Assembly: GCF_964204645.1 (NCBI RefSeq)
Contig: NC_134028.1
Coordinates: forward strand, 24,610,345 to 24,674,344
DNA length: 64,000 bases
Direction: 5' to 3'
DNA from: Tubulanus polymorphus
Taxonomy: Eukaryota > Animalia > Nemertea
In this document: piece by piece, positions 5,532-63,100 of the stretch
Position numbering within the stretch: the stretch's first letter is position 1
How the letters are laid out: every line of letters starts with the position of its first letter
Program-made: the position numbers and the translations under genes
The notes under the pieces: model-generated
What the model saw: the letters and a program-made list of their open reading frames with translations, nothing else
Told to the model about the DNA's origin: nothing
Database searches by the model: none

Positions 5532-6335
5532 TCAACAAGAACAAAAACATTCGGCAATAACCGGATAGGGAACTTTGAGCCATTTGCAGCGAACTTCGCG
5601 AGGATGGTCTTCGTTATCTCCGTCACGTAGACGCCGTTTCGAGTAGATATTCCTGAACCCTCTGACCCTCGAACGGCGACGGGGCAGCGACAATCGACAA
5701 TGCCATCTGAGAATGTAAACCGTATGGCTATCAACCGGGATACATCGCATACCGGCCGGCCATGAACACGGGGTACCGTTGTCGCATTCGCCCTTTTTCA
5801 CCCATCGTGGCCAGTACAACTCGCCTACGTCGTGCCATCTGAAATGTACCGGGCACGATGCTTTGCGGATGAGCCAATCCTTGAATACGTTTACCAACTG
5901 CGGTTGCGGTTGAAACGTCGATCCTGTCGGGTCTTGGAAGGTAAAATTCAGATCGCGCAGAGCTTGTCGTAGCATGGGATCGGTTTTGTAGGCGATGCCG
6001 CTGTTTTGTTTGAATTCGAGAACGTTCGGTCGATCTATCGACATCCATTCCGCGTTATAATCCTCGCCCAAAACTCGTAGCAAACGTTTTTCGCGTAAAT
6101 TTCGTTTCTTCGGTTTAAAACGATGGAAATCGATGACCGGTTCTAGATCGCGACTGCGCGATCGACGACCGCCGCCGCTTTTCATTTTTTTATCCGGTAC
6201 CAGAACATGAGGAAGCGGCCCTGCGATGTTATTCCCCGGTTTCGGTGGCGGCGGTGGAGGAGGTTCCGCGAGAACGTCCAACCACCAAATACAAACGATA
6301 CAAAATAAAACTGGTAAAACCTTATCCAAAGCCAT
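5532..6335 (-). CDS. nog: Noggin-like secreted cystine-knot protein (267 aa), intronless
   Basis: Signal peptide; LREKRLLRVLGEDYNAEWMS; CPVHFRWHDVGELYWPRWVKKGEC; CSWPAGMRC; LRWHC; CKWLKVPYPVIAECFCSC. All nine noggin cysteines are present. Confidence 0.95.
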   Translation of the reverse strand: MALDKVLPVLFCIVCIWWLDVLAEPPPPPPPKPGNNIAGPLPHVLVPDKKMKSGGGRRSRSRDLEPVIDFHRFKPKKRNLREKRLLRVLGEDYNAEWMSIDRPNVLEFKQNSGIAYKTDPMLRQALRDLNFTFQDPTGSTFQPQPQLVNVFKDWLIRKASCPVHFRWHDVGELYWPRWVKKGECDNGTPCSWPAGMRCIPVDSHTVYILRWHCRLSLPRRRSRVRGFRNIYSKRRLRDGDNEDHPREVRCKWLKVPYPVIAECFCSC

Positions 6336-30752: not shown

Positions 30753-32459
30753 TCGGGTTTTCGCTATACTTAGGGAAGGTTGTTCGATAGATGAAGAACC
30801 TTGTTGATAAATATTTGAAAAAATGCCTTTTCATGTAAATAGAATATTAATTTGTTTTTTGTTTGTATTGTTGTTTATTCTATTTATTATTTATTGGTTT
30901 TTTTTAGAATTAATTTATGTACTTGTAGTTTGTAGTTATTTATCATTCATACTTCTCTATTTACAACTGCAGGCATTTTTTCACTGTAAAGTTCTGGGCC
31001 CATTTTAAGAAAGCACTACTGATTCACTGCCACTCCTTAATAATCATTATACACCCGATTGGAAGCTAAATGATTATTCACGAGAGCCATCTCGTGATAT
31101 GGATTTACCCATTACAATAAAAGAAGTTCAAACAGCTATAAACAATGTTAAAACGTTAAAAATTAGTCTTAGCTATAACTTTATGCCTAGTTATTCCTAG
31201 ATTTACCTCTCGAATGTAAATAATGGTCTCCTTTCAGATAAAGGTTAAGTTTTCAAGTACGTAGATATGATCATCAGATTGATGAAGGTTTAAATCGAAA
31301 TCTACGATTCGTTTCAAATTTTTCAAATTGGTTACCTTCGAAAATATCAATGCCATCAAATTTGTACATCTACTATTCAGCAAATAGTTAATATTTGTAC
31401 GTCAACACTGGTCTAATGTTATGTTCTATGTTTCCTAACTATGTGATATCTACACGGACAAATAGCCACAGTTGACTATGTTTAACTATGGTAAGTTGAA
31501 AGATTAAACTCACAATTCATATTGAAACTATATCTCAGTTTAGGAGTTAACTCAACAAGACCTACGAGTCAAAACTAGGCACTCAACACGACCATTTACC
31601 CCTAGTGACTAACTTAACTTGACTTATCTATCAACCATGGATCGAAGACCAATATCTTGAATTAATGGAGCTTAGCTTTTATTAGACTCTCACATTGCAT
31701 AAACATTATCAAATAGTTTCCTTGAAAACACTATATTATCCATCAGACTGGTTTGAAAAAGGTGATAAGCAAAAAAATCAATACTTTACTACAGAAGTCT
31801 GCTATTGTCTTCGCCGCTCCTGGATTTCAGTGTTTATAACATGCACTATTATCTATGCTGCTCCTAATAAGATACACTATAGTCTTTGCTTCTTTTAAAG
31901 CAGTGTTTATTCTGAATCGGTGTTTATGAGATTCCATTAGCTTTGTCGCTTGAATCAGTGGTTTATAAGATTCACTATTGTCTCTGCTGCTCCTGATATT
32001 TAATGTTTTATAGAAATAAACCACCGATTGTAGAAGAATCCATCATTGAGTGATTAATCCGTTGCTGGATCCTCAACTTTTCATCTGGGCTTCTGCAGTT
32101 TTCATCAGCAAATGGGTCGATCAGTATTCATCTACTTGTGAGTGTCTTCTTCAGGCCAATTTTTCCGAGATGTAGTTTGGCTGAAACAAAGTGAAGAAAG
32201 CAAAACATTTCAGACAGATTTATCATAATTTACGTGTCATTTCAAATTACAAGCCACCCTGTTTTTCACAAAGTAAAATTCATTGACGTCAATTGCTGAT
32301 TTAAACCCCAATAATTAATTGCAGTAGTAGGACTAGTTCATCACTGTTTAAGACTAGTGAAGATAAAAGTTCAGCAATGTGGACCGGTAAATAGACTTTG
32401 ATGATAGCCACTTATTAAATGATATTCATATGAGGACTGAAATTTCTATATACAGGTAA

Positions 32460-33420
32460 TTTCATGTATATCAACTTACCTTTAAAGATTGCTGGGTTCA
32501 GTTCTGGTCTTTTCTGTGCACCGTTCCAGTTTGTAGATTTTGGATTGGTTGATGCAATTGGTTGATGCATTTGATTCAAGCTTGGATTGTTCAGTGGGCT
32601 GAGCTTATCTGTAGATATTTGATGAGTCATTGATTTAAAGCTGGGCAGTTTCATATAGATAGGATTTAGCTGAAATGAGCAAACAAAGATATGCTGTAAT
32701 GACAAAATATTTCATTTAGAATTTATCGAAATAATTCCATGTATATCCAGTTACCTTTTATGCTTGGGTCGTTATCGGCGATTATCTTATTAGTTTGTTA
32801 GTTAGTTGGCCTCATCTGTGCACTGTTCCAGTTGGTCGATTTGGACAAGTAGTTGATCTCAAGCTGGGTTTTTTCTTATAGTTGAAATTCAGCTGCAATG
32901 ATTAAAAGAAGATATCCTGTAATGACAAAATATTTCATTTAGAATTTATCGAAATAATTCCATGTATATCAAGTTACCTTTTATGATTGCTTGGTTATCG
33001 GCGATTATCCTTTTAGTTAGTTAGTTAGTTAGTTGGCCTCATCTATTCGCTGTTCCAGTTGGTCGTTTTTGGACGAGTAGTTGATCTCAAACTGGGTTTT
33101 TCTCATAGTTGAAATTTAGCTGCAATGATTAAAAGAAGATATCCCGTAATGACAAAATTTTTCATTTAGAATTTATCGAAATAATTTCATGTATATCAAG
33201 TTACCTTTAATGATTGCTTGGTTCGTAATCGGCGTGGATCATCTTAAGTTTGTTTGTTGATAAGTTGGATTCTTGTTGGCCTCATCTGTGCGCTGTTACA
33301 GTTGGTCGATTTTTGACGAGTAGTTGATCTCAAACTGGGTTTTTCTCATAGTTGAAATTTAGCTGCAATGATTAAAAGAAGATATCCCGTAATGACAAAA
33401 TATTTCATTTAGAATTTATA
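32460..33420. repeat. Tandem exon+intron duplication, ~225-245-bp unit, 4 copies (fifth related end at ~33880-33975)
   Basis: Repeated gtaatgacaaaatatttcatttagaatttatcgaaataattccatgtatatc.agttacctt and gctgcaatgattaaaagaagatatcc blocks. Confidence 0.95.
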
Positions 33421-34565
33421 ATAATTTCCATAAATAATATACCTAGAATAGCCTACTCGGTTATATTCGTAACACCGAACAAATTATAAGCGAACATACG
33501 ATTCCTAGAAGAGTTTCCATCCGATTGAACTTTTATATATTTCAATTCCAAGTATGCAAATTCACATGTATGAAAACGTGCCATTACTTAGTGCTAAAAA
33601 GCAGGGTTTTTACGTGTTTTTCAAGAATAAGTCCCCTAAAAATAACTTGATCACTATGAAATTTTTGTGGGCTCGAGAATTCATTATAAGCCAAACCATG
33701 ACACCAAAAATCAACACTATTGGTTCAACAGCCAATGTTTATGCCTTGTTGACACACCGGTACTCTATTCATTTAAAATGAAAACTGCTTCTCCAGCCCA
33801 TTTGCATAGGCAAACCTACAGTTCGCCAAAAATCAACTTACATTTCAAGTTTGCTGGGTTCAGTTTATCAAATATCAAATTACCTTTTATGATGGCTGGG
33901 TTCATTATCGGAGGATCTCCTTAGTTGGTTGGTTGAGTTTCATCCAAATTGGCCCCTTCTGTGCACTGTTCTGATGAGCTCTCGTTTGACTTTTTGAGTT
34001 GGTGTCCCTTACGATCGTGACACACCTGCCAGGAGCGAAACAGGCAGGAATCGAAGTACAGATATAGTTGTGTGATCGTCGGTCGATTTTTCATCATTTT
34101 TTTCGACAATTTTACAATATTTGGTCTTTTTTTCATACAAGTAGTCCGAAAGTTTACAAGGTTAATAATTTTGTCTAATTTATACATTTCTTTGGTCTTT
34201 TTTTTCATGTAGTCCGAAAGTTTACAAGGATGAAGATAATTTTGTCTAATATTTTTTTCGAAATCAAAGTACAGATATAGTTGCGTGATCGTCAGTCGAT
34301 TTTACATCATTTTTTTCGGAATCGAAGTACTTCTTTGTCTTCTTGGGTTTCGTCGAAGCTGAAATTGAGTAAAAGAAAAACATTTTGTAGTCACACATTT
34401 CTACATCATTAATCCTAATTTATATGTGAATCAACTTAACTTTCAAGATTGCGGAGTTCACTATTCTTTTTTCGGCATCTTCTGTAGTCGCTTTCTACCA
34501 TCGTCTTCTTCAACTTCTTGGGAGTCCTGAAATGAAAAAAAGAGAAGAGCGATGAAAACCTGGTA

Positions 34566-34800
34566 CGGAACAAAACAATGTTCGAAAGCTTTTCAGCTCT
34601 CCGTTGCCGGTCACATGCCGAGAACACCAGACAATGAGCCAGCCAGGAATATACTGCCCTCTACACGCCCTCACACAGAACGCGAAAACCAGAATGACAA
34701 CGCCTCACATTCCCCATCTAACCGCAAGGTGTACTGGGCGACGTCAGTAACTGACAAACCTGTAAGATTGCACGAAACACAAATAGCGCAGTACAACCAG
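34566..34800 (+). mobile_element. Degenerate LINE 3'-end fragment (RTE/L2-like ORF2 C-terminus)
   Basis: Translates in part to QLSVAGHMPRTPDNEPAR, resembling the post-RT R-x-L-x-[WF]-x-GH-x-x-R motif. Inverted partner at 35110-35341. Confidence 0.6.
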
Positions 34801-34828
34801 CTTGACCGGGTTGAGATTCAGGATCTCA

Positions 34829-35105
34829 ACTAGCACTCAAAAGCGTGACAAGAGACTTCATCCACTGACCGAGGTTGTCACAAGGACACAATGAAACTAG
34901 CACTCACAAGCCGACAAGAGACTTCATCCACTGACCGGGGTTGTCACAAGGACACAATGAAAACTAGCACTCAAACTAGAAATCAAAGAGCGTGACAGTA
35001 GAATCATCCCTCAGTCGACTCAGAATACCAGAAACAAAGAGCGTGACAGTAGAATCATCCCTCATCCGGGCGGTCACAATGACACAATGAATGCTAGTAG
35101 CGTGA
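34829..35105. repeat. Short tandem repeats (~67-bp and ~52-bp units) between the two LINE fragments
   Basis: actagcactca...gacaagagacttcatccactgaccg.ggttgtcacaaggacacaatgaa x2; caaagagcgtgacagtagaatcatccctca x2. Confidence 0.85.
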
Positions 35106-35109
35106 CAAT

Positions 35110-35341
35110 CCAGTATAACCACTCCATTTGTATCCCGCGCAATCCCACAGATATGCCCGTCATTGACATCACTCAGCACACTTTGTAGATAGGTGGAGGC
35201 AATGAGGCCTCGTCATCCTGTTATTCTTGTTCCATATGAGAGCGTGTAGAGGGCAGAATTTCCTGACCGACTCTTTGTCTGACATCCTCGACACGTGACC
35301 GGCGAAGGAGAGCTGACGCTTTCGGACATTAGTTTTGTTCC
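35110..35341 (-). mobile_element. Degenerate LINE 3'-end fragment, inverted relative to 34566-34800
   Basis: Translates to VRKRQLSFAGHVSRMSDKESVRK and aligns colinearly with the + copy. Confidence 0.65.
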
Positions 35342-35811
35342 AGCAAACGTTAAAATTCGACAGAGAAATCGGCCCTGAAAAATAAAACGGTTTAATTGCT
35401 GAAAAATAGAACGGATTAATAAACACGGAACAGTACAGGACAGCACGGAGACGAACAGTAACACATAAAACATAAAGACGTCGTTCCTCAGGAAGCAGGA
35501 ACAGGAGCGGGAGCGCAGCGAAAATCGCCAGGAGGAGAATCCACGGTAGCATGTTCACAGTGTGAGTGTGCAGAGGTGAATGGCCTATGCTTGTGTACAC
35601 CGTAGTCAGCCGGTGACGTATTCAATGGCGCGTATGATTATGAATGATATCAACAACTCTGAAAAGCCGCAATTGTGTCTCTATTGTTGAATGGATTATT
35701 GAGAGCTTATAGAAGTTGAATGAAAAGGTTCTACTGCCCGGTTGAATACACGCCAGTAGCCAGCTGAACAATATCGTGGAACTTTAATAAGGCCATAAAA
35801 ATAAATTTCTA

Positions 35812-36155
35812 ACCATGGATATAGTTAATCTTAAGTTACTATAAAACAATAATTTTGAAGCGAGACCTCACACGGCAGCTCGCGCCATTTTGCAGAGCTT
35901 CTCTGGACCTGTGGTGACAGGTCTGCATTATTAAACTGATGAAATGAAGGAAAACTTTAATTTTTTTGGTCTCATTATAGTAATGAGTATAACATCAATT
36001 GCTTACCATAGATAGATTAAATCTTAAGTTACTATAAAACAATAATTTTGAAGCGAGACCTCAGCTCACACGGCGGCTCGCGCCATTTTGCAGAATTTCT
36101 CGCGACCTGTGGTGACAGGTCTGCATTAAAACTGATATAAATAGAAAAAAAACTT
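35812..36155. promoter_or_regulatory. Tandemly duplicated ~145-bp element containing a YY1-like motif, in the divergent lncRNA/ACSM interval
   Basis: 35812-35957 and 36005-36155 are near-identical. Each has cgccatttt (AAAATGGCG on -) and the palindromic gacctgtggtgacaggtc. Confidence 0.45.
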
Positions 36156-37279
36156 CTTGCTTTAAATTTTGCTTTAAATTGATGAGTTGATTTAAAATCA
36201 GTCTCAATAAAATCAGTCTCTATATTGCATTCGGCTCCTTTATACATGTACATCATAAAAACAATGAATATAAATACACTGATACTGATACTGATAAATA
36301 GTGAGACTTCAGGACAGTGAGGAGTGATGCCGGCGAACTGTGGATAGTGAGCAGATATTTTTCAGTGTCTTATTGCGGAAACGAAATATCAAGACCTCGA
36401 TTCAGCTATCGAAAATTTTCCCTTACTTCTACATTAATTAAGTCATCTATGCCTGAAACTTATTTTTTTCCTTTAATACAGAAATAACTCATTTTACACA
36501 TAAATATTTTCTTCTTATAAATCAACCTTTCAAATGAATTATTAGTCAGAACATTTTCTTTATCGTTATTGTTGAATCATTTTCGATATTTACGACGGAT
36601 CAGAATATTCATTCAACTCAAAATGTTCTTCCATTCGTCTAGCACATGCCTAGATATTTCGCCGTTTCGTGAAATATTGTTGTGAGTTTGGGTTTTTCGG
36701 GACCTGACATGACAGGTAAGACCTGTGTAGACAGACATCATTCGCAAATTCTGAACGATGCTGACGCTCGAAGCTAGGTTATTTCCGGGTTCCTGAATGT
36801 GATTTATGGGTTTGTGAAGTTTTTCTCCGGCTGGTAGAACGAATATCCAGGGGCTGAGTGGTTTAATGTGTTCGTGAAGCAACATAATCTAAGGTCTACC
36901 GGCTCACTTCTGAAAAGTAGGAGTGTCAACTGCTGATTGATTGATGACTCGACATTTCTTCTTCTCGACTTTTCCGTTTACTAACTAGTTTAGGAGAGAG
37001 TAATTAAATGAGCCTTCTAATTGGAGTAATTCTTCTTCATTTGTTGACTTCTAATTTAAGCCTCCTGACCTGTGTCGTGTATTTACCTGTTTTTCGGATA
37101 TTGTGCTTATATGATATTCAAGTCCAAGACCTTTTCACGCAAAATATCCTTATAAGGACAGTTAACGGACAACTAAATGTACACTAAAGTTGTTGCCTAA
37201 AATGACCTAGAAATTGAGATAAAAAATCCATGTTCAAATTCAATTTACTGTCAACATTTTATCTTTCAATCTGATTCAG

Positions 37280-40200
37280 ATGTTTAGGGTATCAGTTATC
37301 ACATCATGGAGACATTCACGATTTCTGGGCGCGGTCTTACAGAAACTGAATGGTGCAAGTTCGCCATCACCTCCTCGTCCGGTCGTAGAGCACTACAGAT
37401 ATATCAGTTATCCACCGGGTAACTCGCTCATCGGTGTTAATGATTACGAGTATGAGAAAAAAACGTTCAAGATGCAAGTACCAGAGAAATTCAATTTTGC
37501 CCGAGATGTGATCGACAAGTTTGCTCAGGAGGTAAACTGACAAGTACTTTCTAACTAACGCTTAGTTGACCACACAGGGGCTCGTATTTGAAGTTTGGGG
37601 GCAAACTGTAGCTTAGATCATAAAGTATTCCTGCTACTTTCTTTTTATATATATAGTACCAGGGATATTGGATGATCTAAGCTACAGTTCACCCCCCAAA
37701 CTTCAAATACGAGCCCCTGTGGTTGACCAGTTTATATTTTCAGTCTTGAAGTGGATATTTTGCAAATGTATCATTCTTGTAAATGCTATTCTATTTGAAA
37801 AATTTGGACTCATTGTGGGCTAGTGCAGCGTTTGAACCCACTACCTAACTGTGGCCTAGTGCGACATTCTACCCCTTGACAATCGGTTTTAGCTGCTATC
37901 ATTAGTTTAAACTGCTTACAGCCCTCAATCTAATTATAGCATTTACTAGAGTAATGTCATGTCGGCAAAATATCCACTTCCATAGTTATACATGTACATA
38001 TATGGATGAATGAAACATTTTGCAGTCGAATGCGGCCGAGCGAAATGAAACAGCCCTGTGGTGGATCAATGATCAGGGCAGAGAAGTTAAATGGTCATTC
38101 AGCGAACTTTCGACCAAGTCAAAAAAGTGAGTAGCCCTACCCTGGCCTGATTGGTAGATTTCATTTAGTTTCTTGCCATCGAATGAGATAAATTAGTCTA
38201 ATATTGAGCCGTCATTTCCAAACAAGGGCAACCTGTTCGAAGAAGGTGGACCTGACATTGGAAAGGGCACTTGAAAAGGGCAGAGTTGGCAATGGATGGC
38301 CCTCCCACAGACAATTTAGGACAAACAGGGGGTTTTCTGACCCTTAACGGAGACCATTGAGAATTATTTTTCTTTTTCTTCGAATCATCTTTGCAAAAGA
38401 AAAGTTTTTCCAGACCTTTTGGAGGACACATTCGAATTTTGAAGGGCCTGGTCGACCCCTAAATCCACCCTTGGTGCATTGTCCGGTGTTCAGGCTAAAT
38501 TAATCGAGGATTTAATGAATATGTTCTAGGGTTGCTAATATTCTTGAGACGAGCTGCGGATTGAAAGAAGGTGATGTTATTCTCGTTTTACTGGGTAGAA
38601 ATCCTGAATGGTGGTTGTTCAGTTTAGCGTCATTGCGTTGTGGAATAGTGATGTCACCCGGTACTATGTTACTCACTAGTCATGACATTAATTATCGGTT
38701 GAAAATGTCTAAGGCTAAATGTATAATCACCGATGAGAGTCTGGCTGATAGTGTCGATAAAGTGAGTCCATTTCATTCAACTCTGTTCAACTTCATTCAA
38801 CTCAAATATATGGATAGATAAAAGTGAACAAAGAATGAGGTTCATTAAATTTGTCCGAGCTGCTGCCAACTGTTCCTGATGTTCAGTATTTGTCACTATT
38901 TCATTACGAAAAATACAGATTTCATTTGTTCAATGCGTACATATGAAAGATGTTACCGATGGTCTTGCTGTTGATTACTGATTGAATTTCATATTTCAAT
39001 GAAATGCTCCTGAGAAAAATTCAATTTGTTACTGATAGCCCTTTTCGGAGGTTGGCAGCCGTGTTATGTAATGGTAGAGTTTGTCAAATTTTTTTCTTTT
39101 TCTGCAGGCTTGTGTAGGATGTCCTGACCTCAAACTCAAACTTCTCGTGTCGGAAAAATCCAGGTAATGAAATAGCTGTCAGAACTCTTATCAAATATGA
39201 GTTCTGTTAGTTTCGAAGTATTTTTGCATGATTTCTCTAGACTAAAAAGTTCATCATAGAAAAATTTCTGGTGAATTCTTCCATCCACTCCTCAGTCTCT
39301 GCGAATTTTACGTTTTATGATATTGTTGCGATTTTTAGGTCTGGTTGGTTGAACTATTACAACCTGTTTGATGAAGTTTCTGAACATCATGATGTACGTA
39401 GATTTATTTCTATAATTGTGTCAAGATTTACAGTAAATATACAATAGAAAGACTACGCCTAAATCTGTACTGCTGGGACCAGGATTTGTTGCCCAATTAA
39501 GAGGTTACAGAATTTGAAAGGATAGGAATTTGCTTACCACTAAATTAATAGTCTGGAGATTTGGTGTCTACTGTAATTGGGAAATGAAAGTGATGCAGAC
39601 ACTTCATCAAATTTGAAATTTTCTCCTTTAAAACACCTTGAAAACTCCTCATACCCAGGAATGACTGATATCTGTAGGGATCCTGTTCAAATGACAACTT
39701 AAACTTAGTATATTGAACTGGAAAAACATGTACACAAATTGTGACTCAAAGATAGTTTTTGACTTAGCCAAGTTTGACAGTATATATTCTATTCTAGTGT
39801 CTCGATACAAAGTCATCGGATCCATCAATATTGTATTTTACAAGTGGAACGACTGGTGCTCCGAAGATGGCTCAACACACGCATGCTAGTTTAGGAATTG
39901 GACACCAGGCGACAGCTAGGTATAGAGAATCTTGTAGAAAATTCAGTGCTACCTTCGTATGACACACGTGTGTTGGTATGACATCCTGAGTGTTTTTGGC
40001 CCGTCACTTCACACGGGTGCCAAAGGGCCTGTATCCATTTTGCCAAATTTGGCCCAACCGAAAAAACGTCAGACCAGGCCTGAGCCAAATCTTATGATGG
40101 GTCAAATTATTGTGTGACTGTAAATTGCAACTGGTGACTCATTTTGCTCTGTTTGAGCATTGTTTAGTGCCGAGTGAGGGGTTTACATGTGAGCGCACGG

Positions 40201-60100: not shown

Positions 60101-63100
60101 ATCTTGGATTTATTGAGACAAATGGTACGATGTGTTTATGTACTATAGGAACGCCTATTATAGACGGAGTACCGATGTTAACGAACCAACAGATGTTGAA
60201 CCTACCCGGTACACCTGTGATCGAACTGGACGCTGAAACCGAGAGTAATCACGATACAGCTTTAACGCTCGCCTGCGCCGGCGGACACGCCGATCTAGTT
60301 CAGTTGTTACTGTCACGAGGAGCCGATATTGAACATCGCGATAAGAAAGGTAATTCGTGAGTCCCAAATATCATAAGTGTCTATAATCAATCAGTTCCCA
60401 TCTTTCTCTTAAATACTCTTATTACACTGACTGGGGTGGATCCAAGAATTTTGCTAGGGGATGGGTGTATTCTGCCATATTGTGGCTTCGCAGTAAAGAG
60501 AAATGATCCATTCGAATTTGTTGATTTATTAGGGTGACCACTTATCTGGAAATGGGAAAAAGTAAGGGAATTTTCATTTCTTTAAAAAGGTCGGGGAATA
60601 GTCAGAAGAATGGAATAGTCGGGGAAACAAGTTGAGATTGTATAATCTAACAGTTTCCTGGGTATTTGACTGTATTCATTGATCAGATTCATAGTAGATC
60701 AAGTCAGGGATAAAGCAATGCATGCGTATAATTTGTAGGTTTTACTCCGTTGATCCTGGCTGCGACTGCCGGTCACACCGACGTCGTCGAGATACTACTC
60801 GATCAAGGAGCCGATATCGAAGCTCAATCGGAACGCACGAAGGACACGCCGTTATCGCTCGCCTGTTCGGGAGGTCGTTACGAGGTCAGTTCAGTCGTCA
60901 CGGTTAACGCGATAACGTTCATTCAGGGTCCCTACAATTCCTTGATTTCTTTAAAACTCTTTTCTAACAGAAATTGCTTTTAAAGATGCTTGAAACTTCT
61001 TTAATTTGAGCAAAATACCCAAATACCAGACACAGCGTTCTTTATAGGCTGAGACTTAAGAGGTGCTGTTTTCATTGTTCAGTGTAGTGTTTTGAACAGA
61101 CCTCTGACTATGAAGAGAGTTGTTTCTACTCTTCCCAAGAGCTCAACTACTCCCAAAAGTATCAAAAGATATTCTCAAAATCGGACTTATTTCTCGTCCA
61201 TTTTGAATCAAACTCCTATTTTTTATGTCAAATTACTTTTTCAGTTTTTTGTGAAATCTACCACGGATAATTTAGAGATATATTCTGGACCCCTTGTCCC
61301 TTCTTCATTTGTAGGTGGTTGAATTATTATTGGGTAAAGGAGCGTGTAAGGAACATCGTAATGTGTCGGACTACACCCCTCTGAGTCTGGCCGCGTCCGG
61401 TGGATACGTGAATATTATCAAATTGTTGTTGACCCACAATGCAGAAATTAATTCACGGTAAGAATAGAAGGTTCGATGAAACAAGACTTGTTTCGCAACA
61501 TCTTTTTGAGTACAACCGTTCGAGATTTAACTATATATAATCAAAATCAGGTGATTTTCAATTATTTCTAAGAGTCACATTTCAATTTCAAAGACAGTTC
61601 GGAGTTAAATCATCCGAAATGAACACGATTGATAGAACACTATATCCGTGTTGACGCGATGTAGAAAGAATCCCACAATTATAACGAAAAAGTCCAAAAA
61701 TGTAACTTCGAGACAGTAGTTTTGTAGTATCTCATTATTCCTGAAGATGACTATTAGGATATAGTCAAAACGTTGAAATAAACTACTATCTCGAAGTTAC
61801 ATGTTTTGGTTTTTTTCGTTATAATTGTGGGATTCTCTCTACATCCGAAATGAACCAGTTTCAACTGAAAGTGTCAAATTTATTTAAAACTTTCAGCTGA
61901 ATGCCGATCGTATTGAGAATGTTATGTGTTTTTGTTTTTTAGAACCGGTAGTAAACTGGGTATATCACCGTTGATGTTAGCGGCGATGAACGGACACACG
62001 GCCGCCGTGAAACTGTTATTAGATATGGGCAGCGATATCAACGCTCAGATCGAGACTAACCGCAACACGGCGTTGACGTTGGCGTGTTTCCAGGGACGAC
62101 ACGAAGTCGTCAGTCTGTTGGTCGATAGGAAAGCTAATATCGAGCACCGAGCGAAGGTCAGTGTTTGTTGTACGTCCGGTGCTGGTTGCATTGTCCTGGC
62201 TAGGACCGGTCTAAGACCGACTTAGTTCTATAGCCTATCGGATTACCTGTTTTGTAATATAACGGGGTGGCCATGATCCTGGAAAACCTGGAAACGACTA
62301 GGAACTGATTTCTCTCAGGGAAAAAAAAACACTAGGAATTCGATTAAATTTGGTAAATATCTGCAAAACACAGGGAAATGGAGTTTATGTTGCACGCGTG
62401 TTTTCCCTCAGAATTGTGTTTCACTCCAGAGTTATGTTCCCCAGTCTCTGGTCATCAGAACAACTTTAATATCTTTGTTTCATGTGGTTGCTCTTAAATT
62501 CCTATGAAAATAATTCAGCTGAAAGTTTCAATATTTACTGGGCTAGCTTACTACTGGATCTGTCAAGATAACTATGTGGTCTTTCCTACCGATGTTCATC
62601 AGAACACAGGGAAAGTTCAGTTTTTACTGGGGAAAACCCAGCGAAAACCCAGGGAATTTGGAGGTGGACAGATTGTGGTCACCCGGTGTAATTACTCAGT
62701 AAAATTCATGGATAGCTATATATAGAATAACAGAATCTCAGGAATCCGGGCCGGAGAAGAACAGACCCAGAACTGTGAAACTGTTCCAGAGTTGAGGAAG
62801 GAGTCAACCATTTCAAAGTCTCTCATCTGTAATTGAACACAAGACTTGTAGAACTGGGTCCTGCAATTAACTGATCTGTATTCTCTTAATGCTGGGATTT
62901 TATTCATTCCTCATTGTATACATTGTGGATGCTAAATGTAAAACTTTTTGTAGTGAGATTTGGGGTTTCCCCAACAATATATTGAGAATTTAGGTTCGAA
63001 TTATGTTGCAATCTGCTGCTATTGTTCACATTATTTCATATGAAAACATAGCAATTCACTGTGTAAGCATTGATAGAGAATGCAGTATAGACATCAACTC

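What the first reader, a model, noticed from the sequence alone, without database searches (positions are those of the whole stretch)
34566..35341. LINE-derived long hairpin with strong G:U-wobble bias on the minus strand: candidate hpRNA/endo-siRNA locus
Seen: two ~235-bp diverged copies of a LINE ORF2 tail sit in inverted orientation (34566-34800 +, 35110-35341 -). In a hand alignment I counted about 35 transitions that become G:U or U:G pairs in a minus-strand transcript, against about 9 that become A:C mismatches; strand-symmetric neutral decay predicts roughly equal numbers. The 5' arm starts ~30 nt after a strong acceptor (exon start 35374), and the ~300-nt loop is built from repeats with gtgacaa...ttgtcac stems. 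Known: Drosophila hpRNAs are long imperfect G:U-rich foldbacks diced into siRNAs. Inference: a domesticated transposon-derived dsRNA that may silence its parent LINE family. Strand-asymmetric A>G mutation or retro-copied ADAR editing would give the same skew.
Basis: partly seen in the sequence, partly recalled or inferred. Interest (0 to 1): 0.85.

Follow-up and report, generated by a model that had tools for sequence, protein, structure and literature searches.

The report
Multicopy edited hairpin RNA, ribbon worm
A ribbon worm carries an estimated hundred or so copies of a DNA unit with a 240-base-pair foldback whose mismatches favour G:U pairs on one strand and which shows RNA-editing marks in what are likely RNA data, so it is likely a selected double-stranded RNA that would feed small-RNA silencing in a phylum reported to lack the usual siRNA-making enzyme.

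Summary
The foldback and its skew are real: 35 G:U against 9 A:C on the minus strand (p=1e-4), stable across alignment settings. Seven other inverted pairs show no skew (14 vs 14), nor do the flanks.

(1) The hairpin is the core of a multi-copy unit of 5 kb or more, about 120 copies by read depth; majority letters keep the skew (33 vs 9). (2) Two runs that behave like RNA carry seven minus-strand A>G changes, all at A:U stem pairs and at 0.1-1.6% in ~900x DNA: an A-to-I signature. Their near absence from DNA argues against retro-copied editing.

Not supported: the exon start at 35374 (contigs read through it). Unconfirmed: LINE origin (five searches found no LINE) and small RNAs (no data). The animal is a nemertean, a phylum reported to lack DICER2 but keep siAGO (PMC11114477). 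Verdict: an expressed, edited, pairing-selected long-hairpin family that works like an hpRNA precursor; membership untested. No similar earlier scan finding turned up.

The parts
35105..35341 (-). 5' arm of the long stem (sense to the presumed retroelement fragment)
34566..34805 (-). 3' arm of the long stem (antisense to the presumed retroelement fragment)
34719..34769 (-). cluster of seven A>G (A-to-I-type) sites seen only in the RNA-like runs: 34719, 34732, 34744, 34761, 34763, 34768, 34769; all are A:U pairs in the stem
34806..35104 (-). 299-nt loop of 66-67-nt and 51-nt repeats; weakly structured (z -2.5); 35088-35098 can pair with 34829-34839; no RNA-only changes listed here
35342..35600 (-). 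5' leader; RNA-like coverage ends near 35600; holds tandem acceptor-like motifs at 35398 and 35374 that the contigs read through
35169..35552 (-). 127-aa ATG ORF with hydrophobic N-terminus running into the 5' arm; no sign of coding constraint; lead only
35601..36726 (.). multi-copy upstream region with next to no RNA-like coverage; inferred promoter region; contains a 160-bp direct duplication
32630..33431 (-). three and a half tandem 223-243-bp units with acceptor-like and donor-like motifs, downstream in the same multi-copy unit
31700..36726 (.). multi-copy unit, about 12-150x single-copy depth and about 120x over the hairpin; right edge near 36726-36757 (inferred); left edge not reached (lies left of 31700)

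Best explanation
This is one member of a multi-copy family of long foldback sequences, likely transcribed on the minus strand into a ~240-bp RNA duplex that is likely A-to-I edited and likely kept by selection on base pairing, and whose product would most likely be cut into small guide RNAs. Steps. (1) An inverted duplication of a dead, probably retroelement-derived fragment made the two arms (inferred). (2) As the arms diverged by about 26%, changes giving G:U were kept about four times as often as changes giving A:C (counts shown; selection inferred). (3) The unit, with its own upstream region, then spread to about 100 copies with both arms and the loop intact (depth shown; route unknown, not through edited RNA). 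(4) RNA starting near 35600 reads through both arms and forms a duplex that ADAR edits (signature shown; RNA status of the runs and the enzyme inferred). (5) With no Dicer-2 in the phylum, Dicer-1 would cut the stem, and the products would load the retained siAGO or the miRNA AGO; G:U-type changes in the 3' arm would still let guides pair with sense copies of the parent sequence (untested).
For: Skew 35 vs 9, robust in 5 of 5 settings. No skew in 7 other inverted pairs, 14 vs 14, Fisher p=0.011 against the hairpin. No matching strand bias in singleton changes of tandem units in the same transcription unit (6 vs 5) or in DNA-read variants outside the hairpin (121 vs 106, p=0.35). Downstream flanks are not G+U-rich on minus (0.42-0.48). 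Majority letters give 179 WC, 33 G:U, 9 A:C, 15 other, p=2.7e-4. Of 19 listed arm variants, 11 toggle WC/G:U and 4 toggle WC/A:C. Seven RNA-only sites are all T>C on plus; 7 of 18 minus-strand As in 34687-34799 vs 0 of 52 in the loop, p=2.7e-5. Three of them are at full depth in both X5 and X6, and the others differ between contigs. The hairpin and leader form the longest even high-depth stretch of the unit. Nemerteans keep siAGO, and DICER1 processing is raised as a possibility (PMC11114477 section 11).
Against: No small-RNA data, so step 5 is untested. Nemerteans lack DICER2, and the one nemertean library showed no endo-siRNA signature (PMC11114477). Editing of inverted repeats is ordinary across Metazoa and does not show function (PMC5625713, passages). 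X5 and X6 are one sample, are not on record as RNA, and have no same-individual DNA, so private alleles are not formally excluded. The 11 vs 4 variant ratio is not significant (p=0.12), and 40 of 80 rows were not shown. No two-sided compensatory change appears among the listed variants. The flank control from reads is unpolarised. The edited contigs carry family-majority letters, so expression of this particular copy is not shown. No parent LINE or target was identified.
Confidence: 0.45

Rival explanations
1. The hairpin is cargo or a cis-acting part of a non-autonomous mobile element. The duplex is real and edited, and G:U is favoured for the element's own cycle or for host tolerance, but no guide RNAs are made.
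For: About 100 copies at mostly 90-99% identity, with mosaic structure and many loose ends. This copy sits alone in 64 kb, between a zinc-finger gene and a single-copy AMP-binding-family gene. A palindromic repeat family in frog is a major ADAR target (PMC5625713, passages). Near-perfect dsRNA is selected against in mRNAs (PMC7006430, abstract), and G:U designs avoid self-silencing of hairpin transgenes in plants (PMC9263138, abstract).
Against: No terminal inverted repeat to the right edge was found within 24-35 kb, and no transposase or other Pfam family in 12 ORFs of the region. Selection merely against dsRNA would favour A:C, the opposite of what is seen.
Confidence: 0.3
2. The skew is mutational: strand-biased mutation, retro-copying of edited RNA in an earlier phase, or biased repair of a hairpin that forms on one DNA strand. 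The duplex has no function.
For: The fixed G:U pairs could not be polarised without the parent sequence. The loop is also G+U-rich on minus (0.61). The CpG-based polarisation (14 vs 2) is weak because the window has no CpG depletion (o/e 1.08).
Against: Sites edited at full depth in RNA contigs are at 1/884, 1/979 and 3/940 in DNA. 9 of 11 WC/G:U variants are C/U, not A/G. The Gs of G:U pairs show no lack of a 5' G neighbour (13/35 vs 24/83 for A:U, p=0.39), whereas ADAR products would be expected to show one (recalled). Flank controls are flat.
Confidence: 0.13
3. The stem regulates its own transcript: an edited duplex holds back or destabilises an RNA that encodes the 127-aa leader ORF or downstream exon-like units.
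For: The ORF begins about 50 nt after the inferred 5' end, has a hydrophobic N-terminus, and is the longest ATG ORF in 27.7-37.2 kb. No listed variant creates a stop.
Against: 9 of 13 listed variants are non-synonymous. About 21% of DNA reads carry a 1-nt insertion at codon 99. The protein is not in the 15-billion-sequence collection and has no Pfam match.
Confidence: 0.1

Closest known systems
Drosophila hairpin RNAs (hpRNAs; hp-CG4068, hp-Nmy/Tmy, hp-pncr009 family)
   Same: Long imperfect inverted-repeat transcripts built from a duplicated fragment of another sequence, some multi-copy (hp-CG4068 has 20 tandem copies) (PMC10317233, passages). G:U richness and editing of hpRNAs are recalled; the primary papers were not held.
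   Different: hpRNAs are defined by Dcr-2-dependent 21-22-nt siRNAs, and most are spliced, polyadenylated mRNAs aimed at host genes or meiotic drivers. Here the phylum lacks DICER2, no splicing is seen around the stem, the copy number is about 100, and no target is known.
ADAR-edited inverted or palindromic repeats (inverted Alu pairs; frog Harbinger palindrome)
   Same: Repeat-derived intramolecular dsRNA with clustered A-to-G changes (PMC5625713, passages).
   Different: Those duplexes arise from young, similar repeats, and near-perfect ones are selected against (PMC7006430, abstract). Here 26%-diverged arms retain 86% pairing through a 4:1 G:U bias shared by the whole family.
Engineered G:U hairpin transgenes in plants
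   Same: G:U substitution keeps RNA pairing while breaking the DNA inverted repeat (PMC9263138, abstract).
   Different: Artificial and in plants; the self-silencing it avoids was not tested here.

Membership tests
Drosophila-type hpRNA | Single transcript folding into a long imperfect stem | tested here: met
   ~240-bp stem, 86% paired, -416 kcal/mol; RNA-like contigs tile both arms and the loop, though no single contig spans it
Drosophila-type hpRNA | One-strand expression with dsRNA formed in vivo | tested here: met
   7 minus-strand A>G sites confined to the stem; RNA status of the runs is inferred
Drosophila-type hpRNA | 21-22-nt siRNAs from both arms | not testable with these tools
   no run on record as RNA or small RNA; contigs drop short RNAs
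Drosophila-type hpRNA | Dependence on Dicer-2 and siAGO | not testable with these tools
   no genome held; DICER2 reported absent and siAGO present in Nemertea (PMC11114477), not checked in this species
Drosophila-type hpRNA | Spliced, polyadenylated primary transcript | tested here: inconclusive
   read-through at 35374, 35398 and 34526 and no RNA joints in 34480-35420; only 15 of 250 joints shown for the wider stretch
Drosophila-type hpRNA | Complementary target repressed in trans | not testable with these tools
   no parent or target found in the window or in protein searches
LINE (RTE-type) ORF2 fragment | Significant similarity to a LINE ORF2 protein | tested here: inconclusive
   no LINE hit; short decayed C-terminal tails are weak queries; resemblance is recalled only
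Non-autonomous DNA transposon or Helitron | Terminal inverted repeats or Helitron ends and target-site pattern | tested here: inconclusive
   no TIR match to the right edge within 24-35 kb; left edge not reached
Known structured RNA family (Rfam) | Covariance-model match | tested here: not met
   0 matches at E<=1 in 31500-37500

The most novel reading that the evidence does not exclude
A ~100-copy family of hpRNA-like genes, built from a dead retroelement, that makes endogenous siRNAs without Dicer-2 and is the missing cargo of the orphan siAGO kept by ribbon worms: a self-amplifying silencing cassette whose G:U pairs preserve the RNA duplex while eroding the DNA inverted repeat.
Probability: 0.25. 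Interest if true: 0.88.

Novelty: new variant of a known kind. Interest (0 to 1): 0.7.

Why it matters
Trochozoans are reported to have lost the endo-siRNA pathway, yet nemerteans keep siAGO with no known cargo (PMC11114477). An abundant, expressed long duplex that appears selected for pairing gives a named substrate, so one small-RNA library or Argonaute pull-down could test that open question. The family also offers about 100 natural replicates for measuring selection on G:U versus A:C in a long dsRNA. Even if no small RNAs are made, a repeat family that maintains long dsRNA runs against the general selection reported against it (PMC7006430).

Tried and rejected
No genome was held, so copies could not be assembled, mapped or put on a tree. 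No RNA holder was listed by the run search; that blank is not evidence. X9 laid nothing, which is no proof of absence. LINE identity: phmmer over 1.84 billion representatives gave 1 hit, a tandem-repeat protein with no LINE domain; two word-indexed searches with stops read as X gave no hit at E<=10 among 32 and 26 candidates; Pfam gave none. The question stays open. A 14-mer scan of metagenome contigs returned 118 loci, none similar to the unit by blastn. Rfam gave 0 hits. Two independent insertions of still-coding LINE lineages is disfavoured: G:U differences fall evenly on codon positions (13/12/10 in one frame; 11/11/13 when I re-phase by hand at the frameshift). CpG-based polarisation (14 vs 2) was set aside because the window shows no CpG depletion. 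The shuffle test for the leader ORF (0 of 2000) was set aside as biased, since the interval was cut to the ORF. Okamura 2008 and Wen 2015 were not held. Nine paper searches listed no nemertean long-hairpin family; subscription journals are mostly not covered. The supplementary tables of novel nemertean miRNAs in PMC11114477 were not examined and could bear on novelty.

Full report
1. Observation. The two arms lie at 34566-34805 (+) and 35105-35341 (-). Five alignment settings give 31-35 vs 7-9. The minus strand folds at -416.3 kcal/mol and the plus strand at -295; arm-to-arm duplex energies are -318 and -229. On minus, 86% of columns pair and 26 of 221 21-nt windows are fully paired, against 0 of 221 on plus. 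The loop is made of 66-67-nt and 51-nt repeats and is only weakly structured (z -2.5).

2. Controls for mutation bias. Seven other inverted pairs in the window give 14 vs 14 (Fisher p=0.011 against the hairpin); four of them are far-apart dispersed repeats, and none is known to be transcribed. Singleton changes in three tandem units downstream in the same unit give 6 vs 5, a partly overlapping four-unit set 6 vs 3, the loop units 4 vs 2 and an unrelated array 0 vs 2; these numbers are small. DNA-read variants outside the hairpin give 121 vs 106 (p=0.35, unpolarised). Downstream flanks are not G+U-rich on minus, but the loop is (0.61), which counts slightly against me.

3. It is a multi-copy family. 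No genome was held, so I laid public runs on the window. Raw DNA reads (X7) average about 1094x over the hairpin and leader, against a mean of 9x (3-15x) in five single-copy bins: about 120 copies, range 73-365. Single contigs give lower bounds of 71 (X1) and 20 (X2). The whole of 31.7-36.7 kb is multi-copy at 12-154x. The right edge is near 36726-36757, inferred from the depth drop and a single-copy contig that starts at 36697; the left edge was not reached. Depth is even across both arms and the loop, so copies carry the whole foldback. Counting majority letters site by site gives 179 Watson-Crick, 33 G:U, 9 A:C and 15 other pairs (p=2.7e-4), so the skew predates the spread. Of 19 listed arm variants (40 of 80 rows were shown), 11 toggle between Watson-Crick and G:U, 4 between Watson-Crick and A:C, and 4 involve transversions (11 vs 4, p=0.12). 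No two-sided compensation is among them.

4. Expression and editing. No run is on record as RNA. X5 and X6 (one sample) behave like RNA: X5 covers most of 31.7-35.6 kb, has zero depth at 35606-36473, including the bin deepest in DNA outside the tandem units, and nearly misses a high-copy palindrome at 37.6 kb. In 34480-35420, X5 has 30 differences; 27 were shown, 21 shared with DNA and 6 not, all 6 T>C. X6 has 26; 23 were shown, and the 4 not in DNA are all T>C. The seven distinct sites (34719, 34732, 34744, 34761, 34763, 34768, 34769) are A>G on minus, each an A:U stem pair; DNA reads show them at 1/884, 11/874, 1/979, 4/970, 15/949, 3/940 and 7/912. Three are at full depth in both runs and the others differ between contigs, as expected of molecules edited to different extents. 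7 of 18 As in that stretch are affected against 0 of 52 in the loop (p=2.7e-5). This points to minus-strand transcription and a duplex in vivo. Caveats: there is no same-individual DNA; no such site was listed on the 5' arm; the edited contigs carry family-majority letters, so this copy may not be the source. Contigs read through the acceptor motifs at 35374, 35398 and 34526, and 0 of 93 fit only partly, so the proposed exon start is not supported.

5. Retro-copied editing is unlikely. If edited RNA seeded the copies, the fully edited sites would be common in DNA, and they are at 0.1-0.3%. 9 of 11 Watson-Crick/G:U variants are C/U. The Gs in G:U pairs show no lack of a 5' G (13/35 vs 24/83). 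An older phase cannot be excluded, because the fixed pairs are unpolarised.

6. Origin of the arms. The arm peptides recall an RTE-type LINE ORF2 tail, but that label is from memory; searches found no LINE. Both arms carry stops and a frameshift, and the differences fall evenly on codon positions, which fits inverted duplication of one dead fragment.

7. Organism and pathway. PMC11114477 (abstract, passages, sections 7 and 11 read) reports DICER1 and siAGO but no DICER2 in Nemertea, finds no endo-siRNA signature in Notospermus, and leaves open what siAGO loads. PMC8915122 (passages) reports loss of siRNAs in an annelid. PMC10317233 (passages) defines hpRNAs by Dcr-2-dependent siRNAs. PMC5625713 (passages) shows that editing of repeat-derived dsRNA is general. 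PMC7006430 and PMC9263138 were seen as abstracts.

8. Mechanism and verdict. Shown: foldback, skew, copy number, family-wide skew, and A>G changes confined to the stem. Inferred: RNA status of the runs, ADAR, selection on pairing (about 0.7), retroelement origin (about 0.7). Untested: small RNAs and any target. I put 0.45 on a pairing-selected hairpin family that is processed into guides, 0.30 on a structural part or cargo of a mobile element, 0.13 on mutation bias and 0.10 on control of its own transcript. It works like an hpRNA precursor but is not filed as one. Interest 0.7; new variant of a known kind.

Noticed in passing
window 34566-35341: The G of a G:U pair never has A as its 5' neighbour (0 of 35, against 19 of 83 for A:U and 24 of 90 for G:C). 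This is also the weakest G:U stack in a toy energy test. Post hoc and unexplained.
   Followed up: partly
window 35197-35241: Seven changes private to this copy (family letter at 94-99%) cluster in 45 nt of the 5' arm; four turn G:C into G:U and three break pairs. Possibly a converted tract.
   Followed up: partly
window 36700-36730: The right edge of the multi-copy unit falls about 10 nt after a plus-strand donor-like motif at 36715/36716, upstream of a single-copy AMP-binding-family gene (weak Pfam hit; acyl-CoA synthetase label recalled). The unit may supply that gene's promoter and first non-coding exon.
   Followed up: no
window 34541-34701 with 35182-35341: A few DNA reads (3-11 per joint) switch strand between the arms: rare loop inversions by arm-to-arm recombination, or library chimeras.
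   Followed up: no
window 32630-33431: Tandem 223-243-bp units each carry acceptor-like and donor-like motifs on the minus strand but no long open frame; use in splicing not seen in the joints shown.
   Followed up: partly
window 37573-37721 and 61658-61845: Palindromic MITE-like elements without G:U skew; the first is high-copy in DNA reads.
   Followed up: partly
window 31009-31200: A short frame recalls a LINE ORF2 segment (recalled; no Pfam hit).
   Followed up: partly
window 5532-6335 (-): Noggin gene in a single open frame, used here only to place the phylum.
   Followed up: yes
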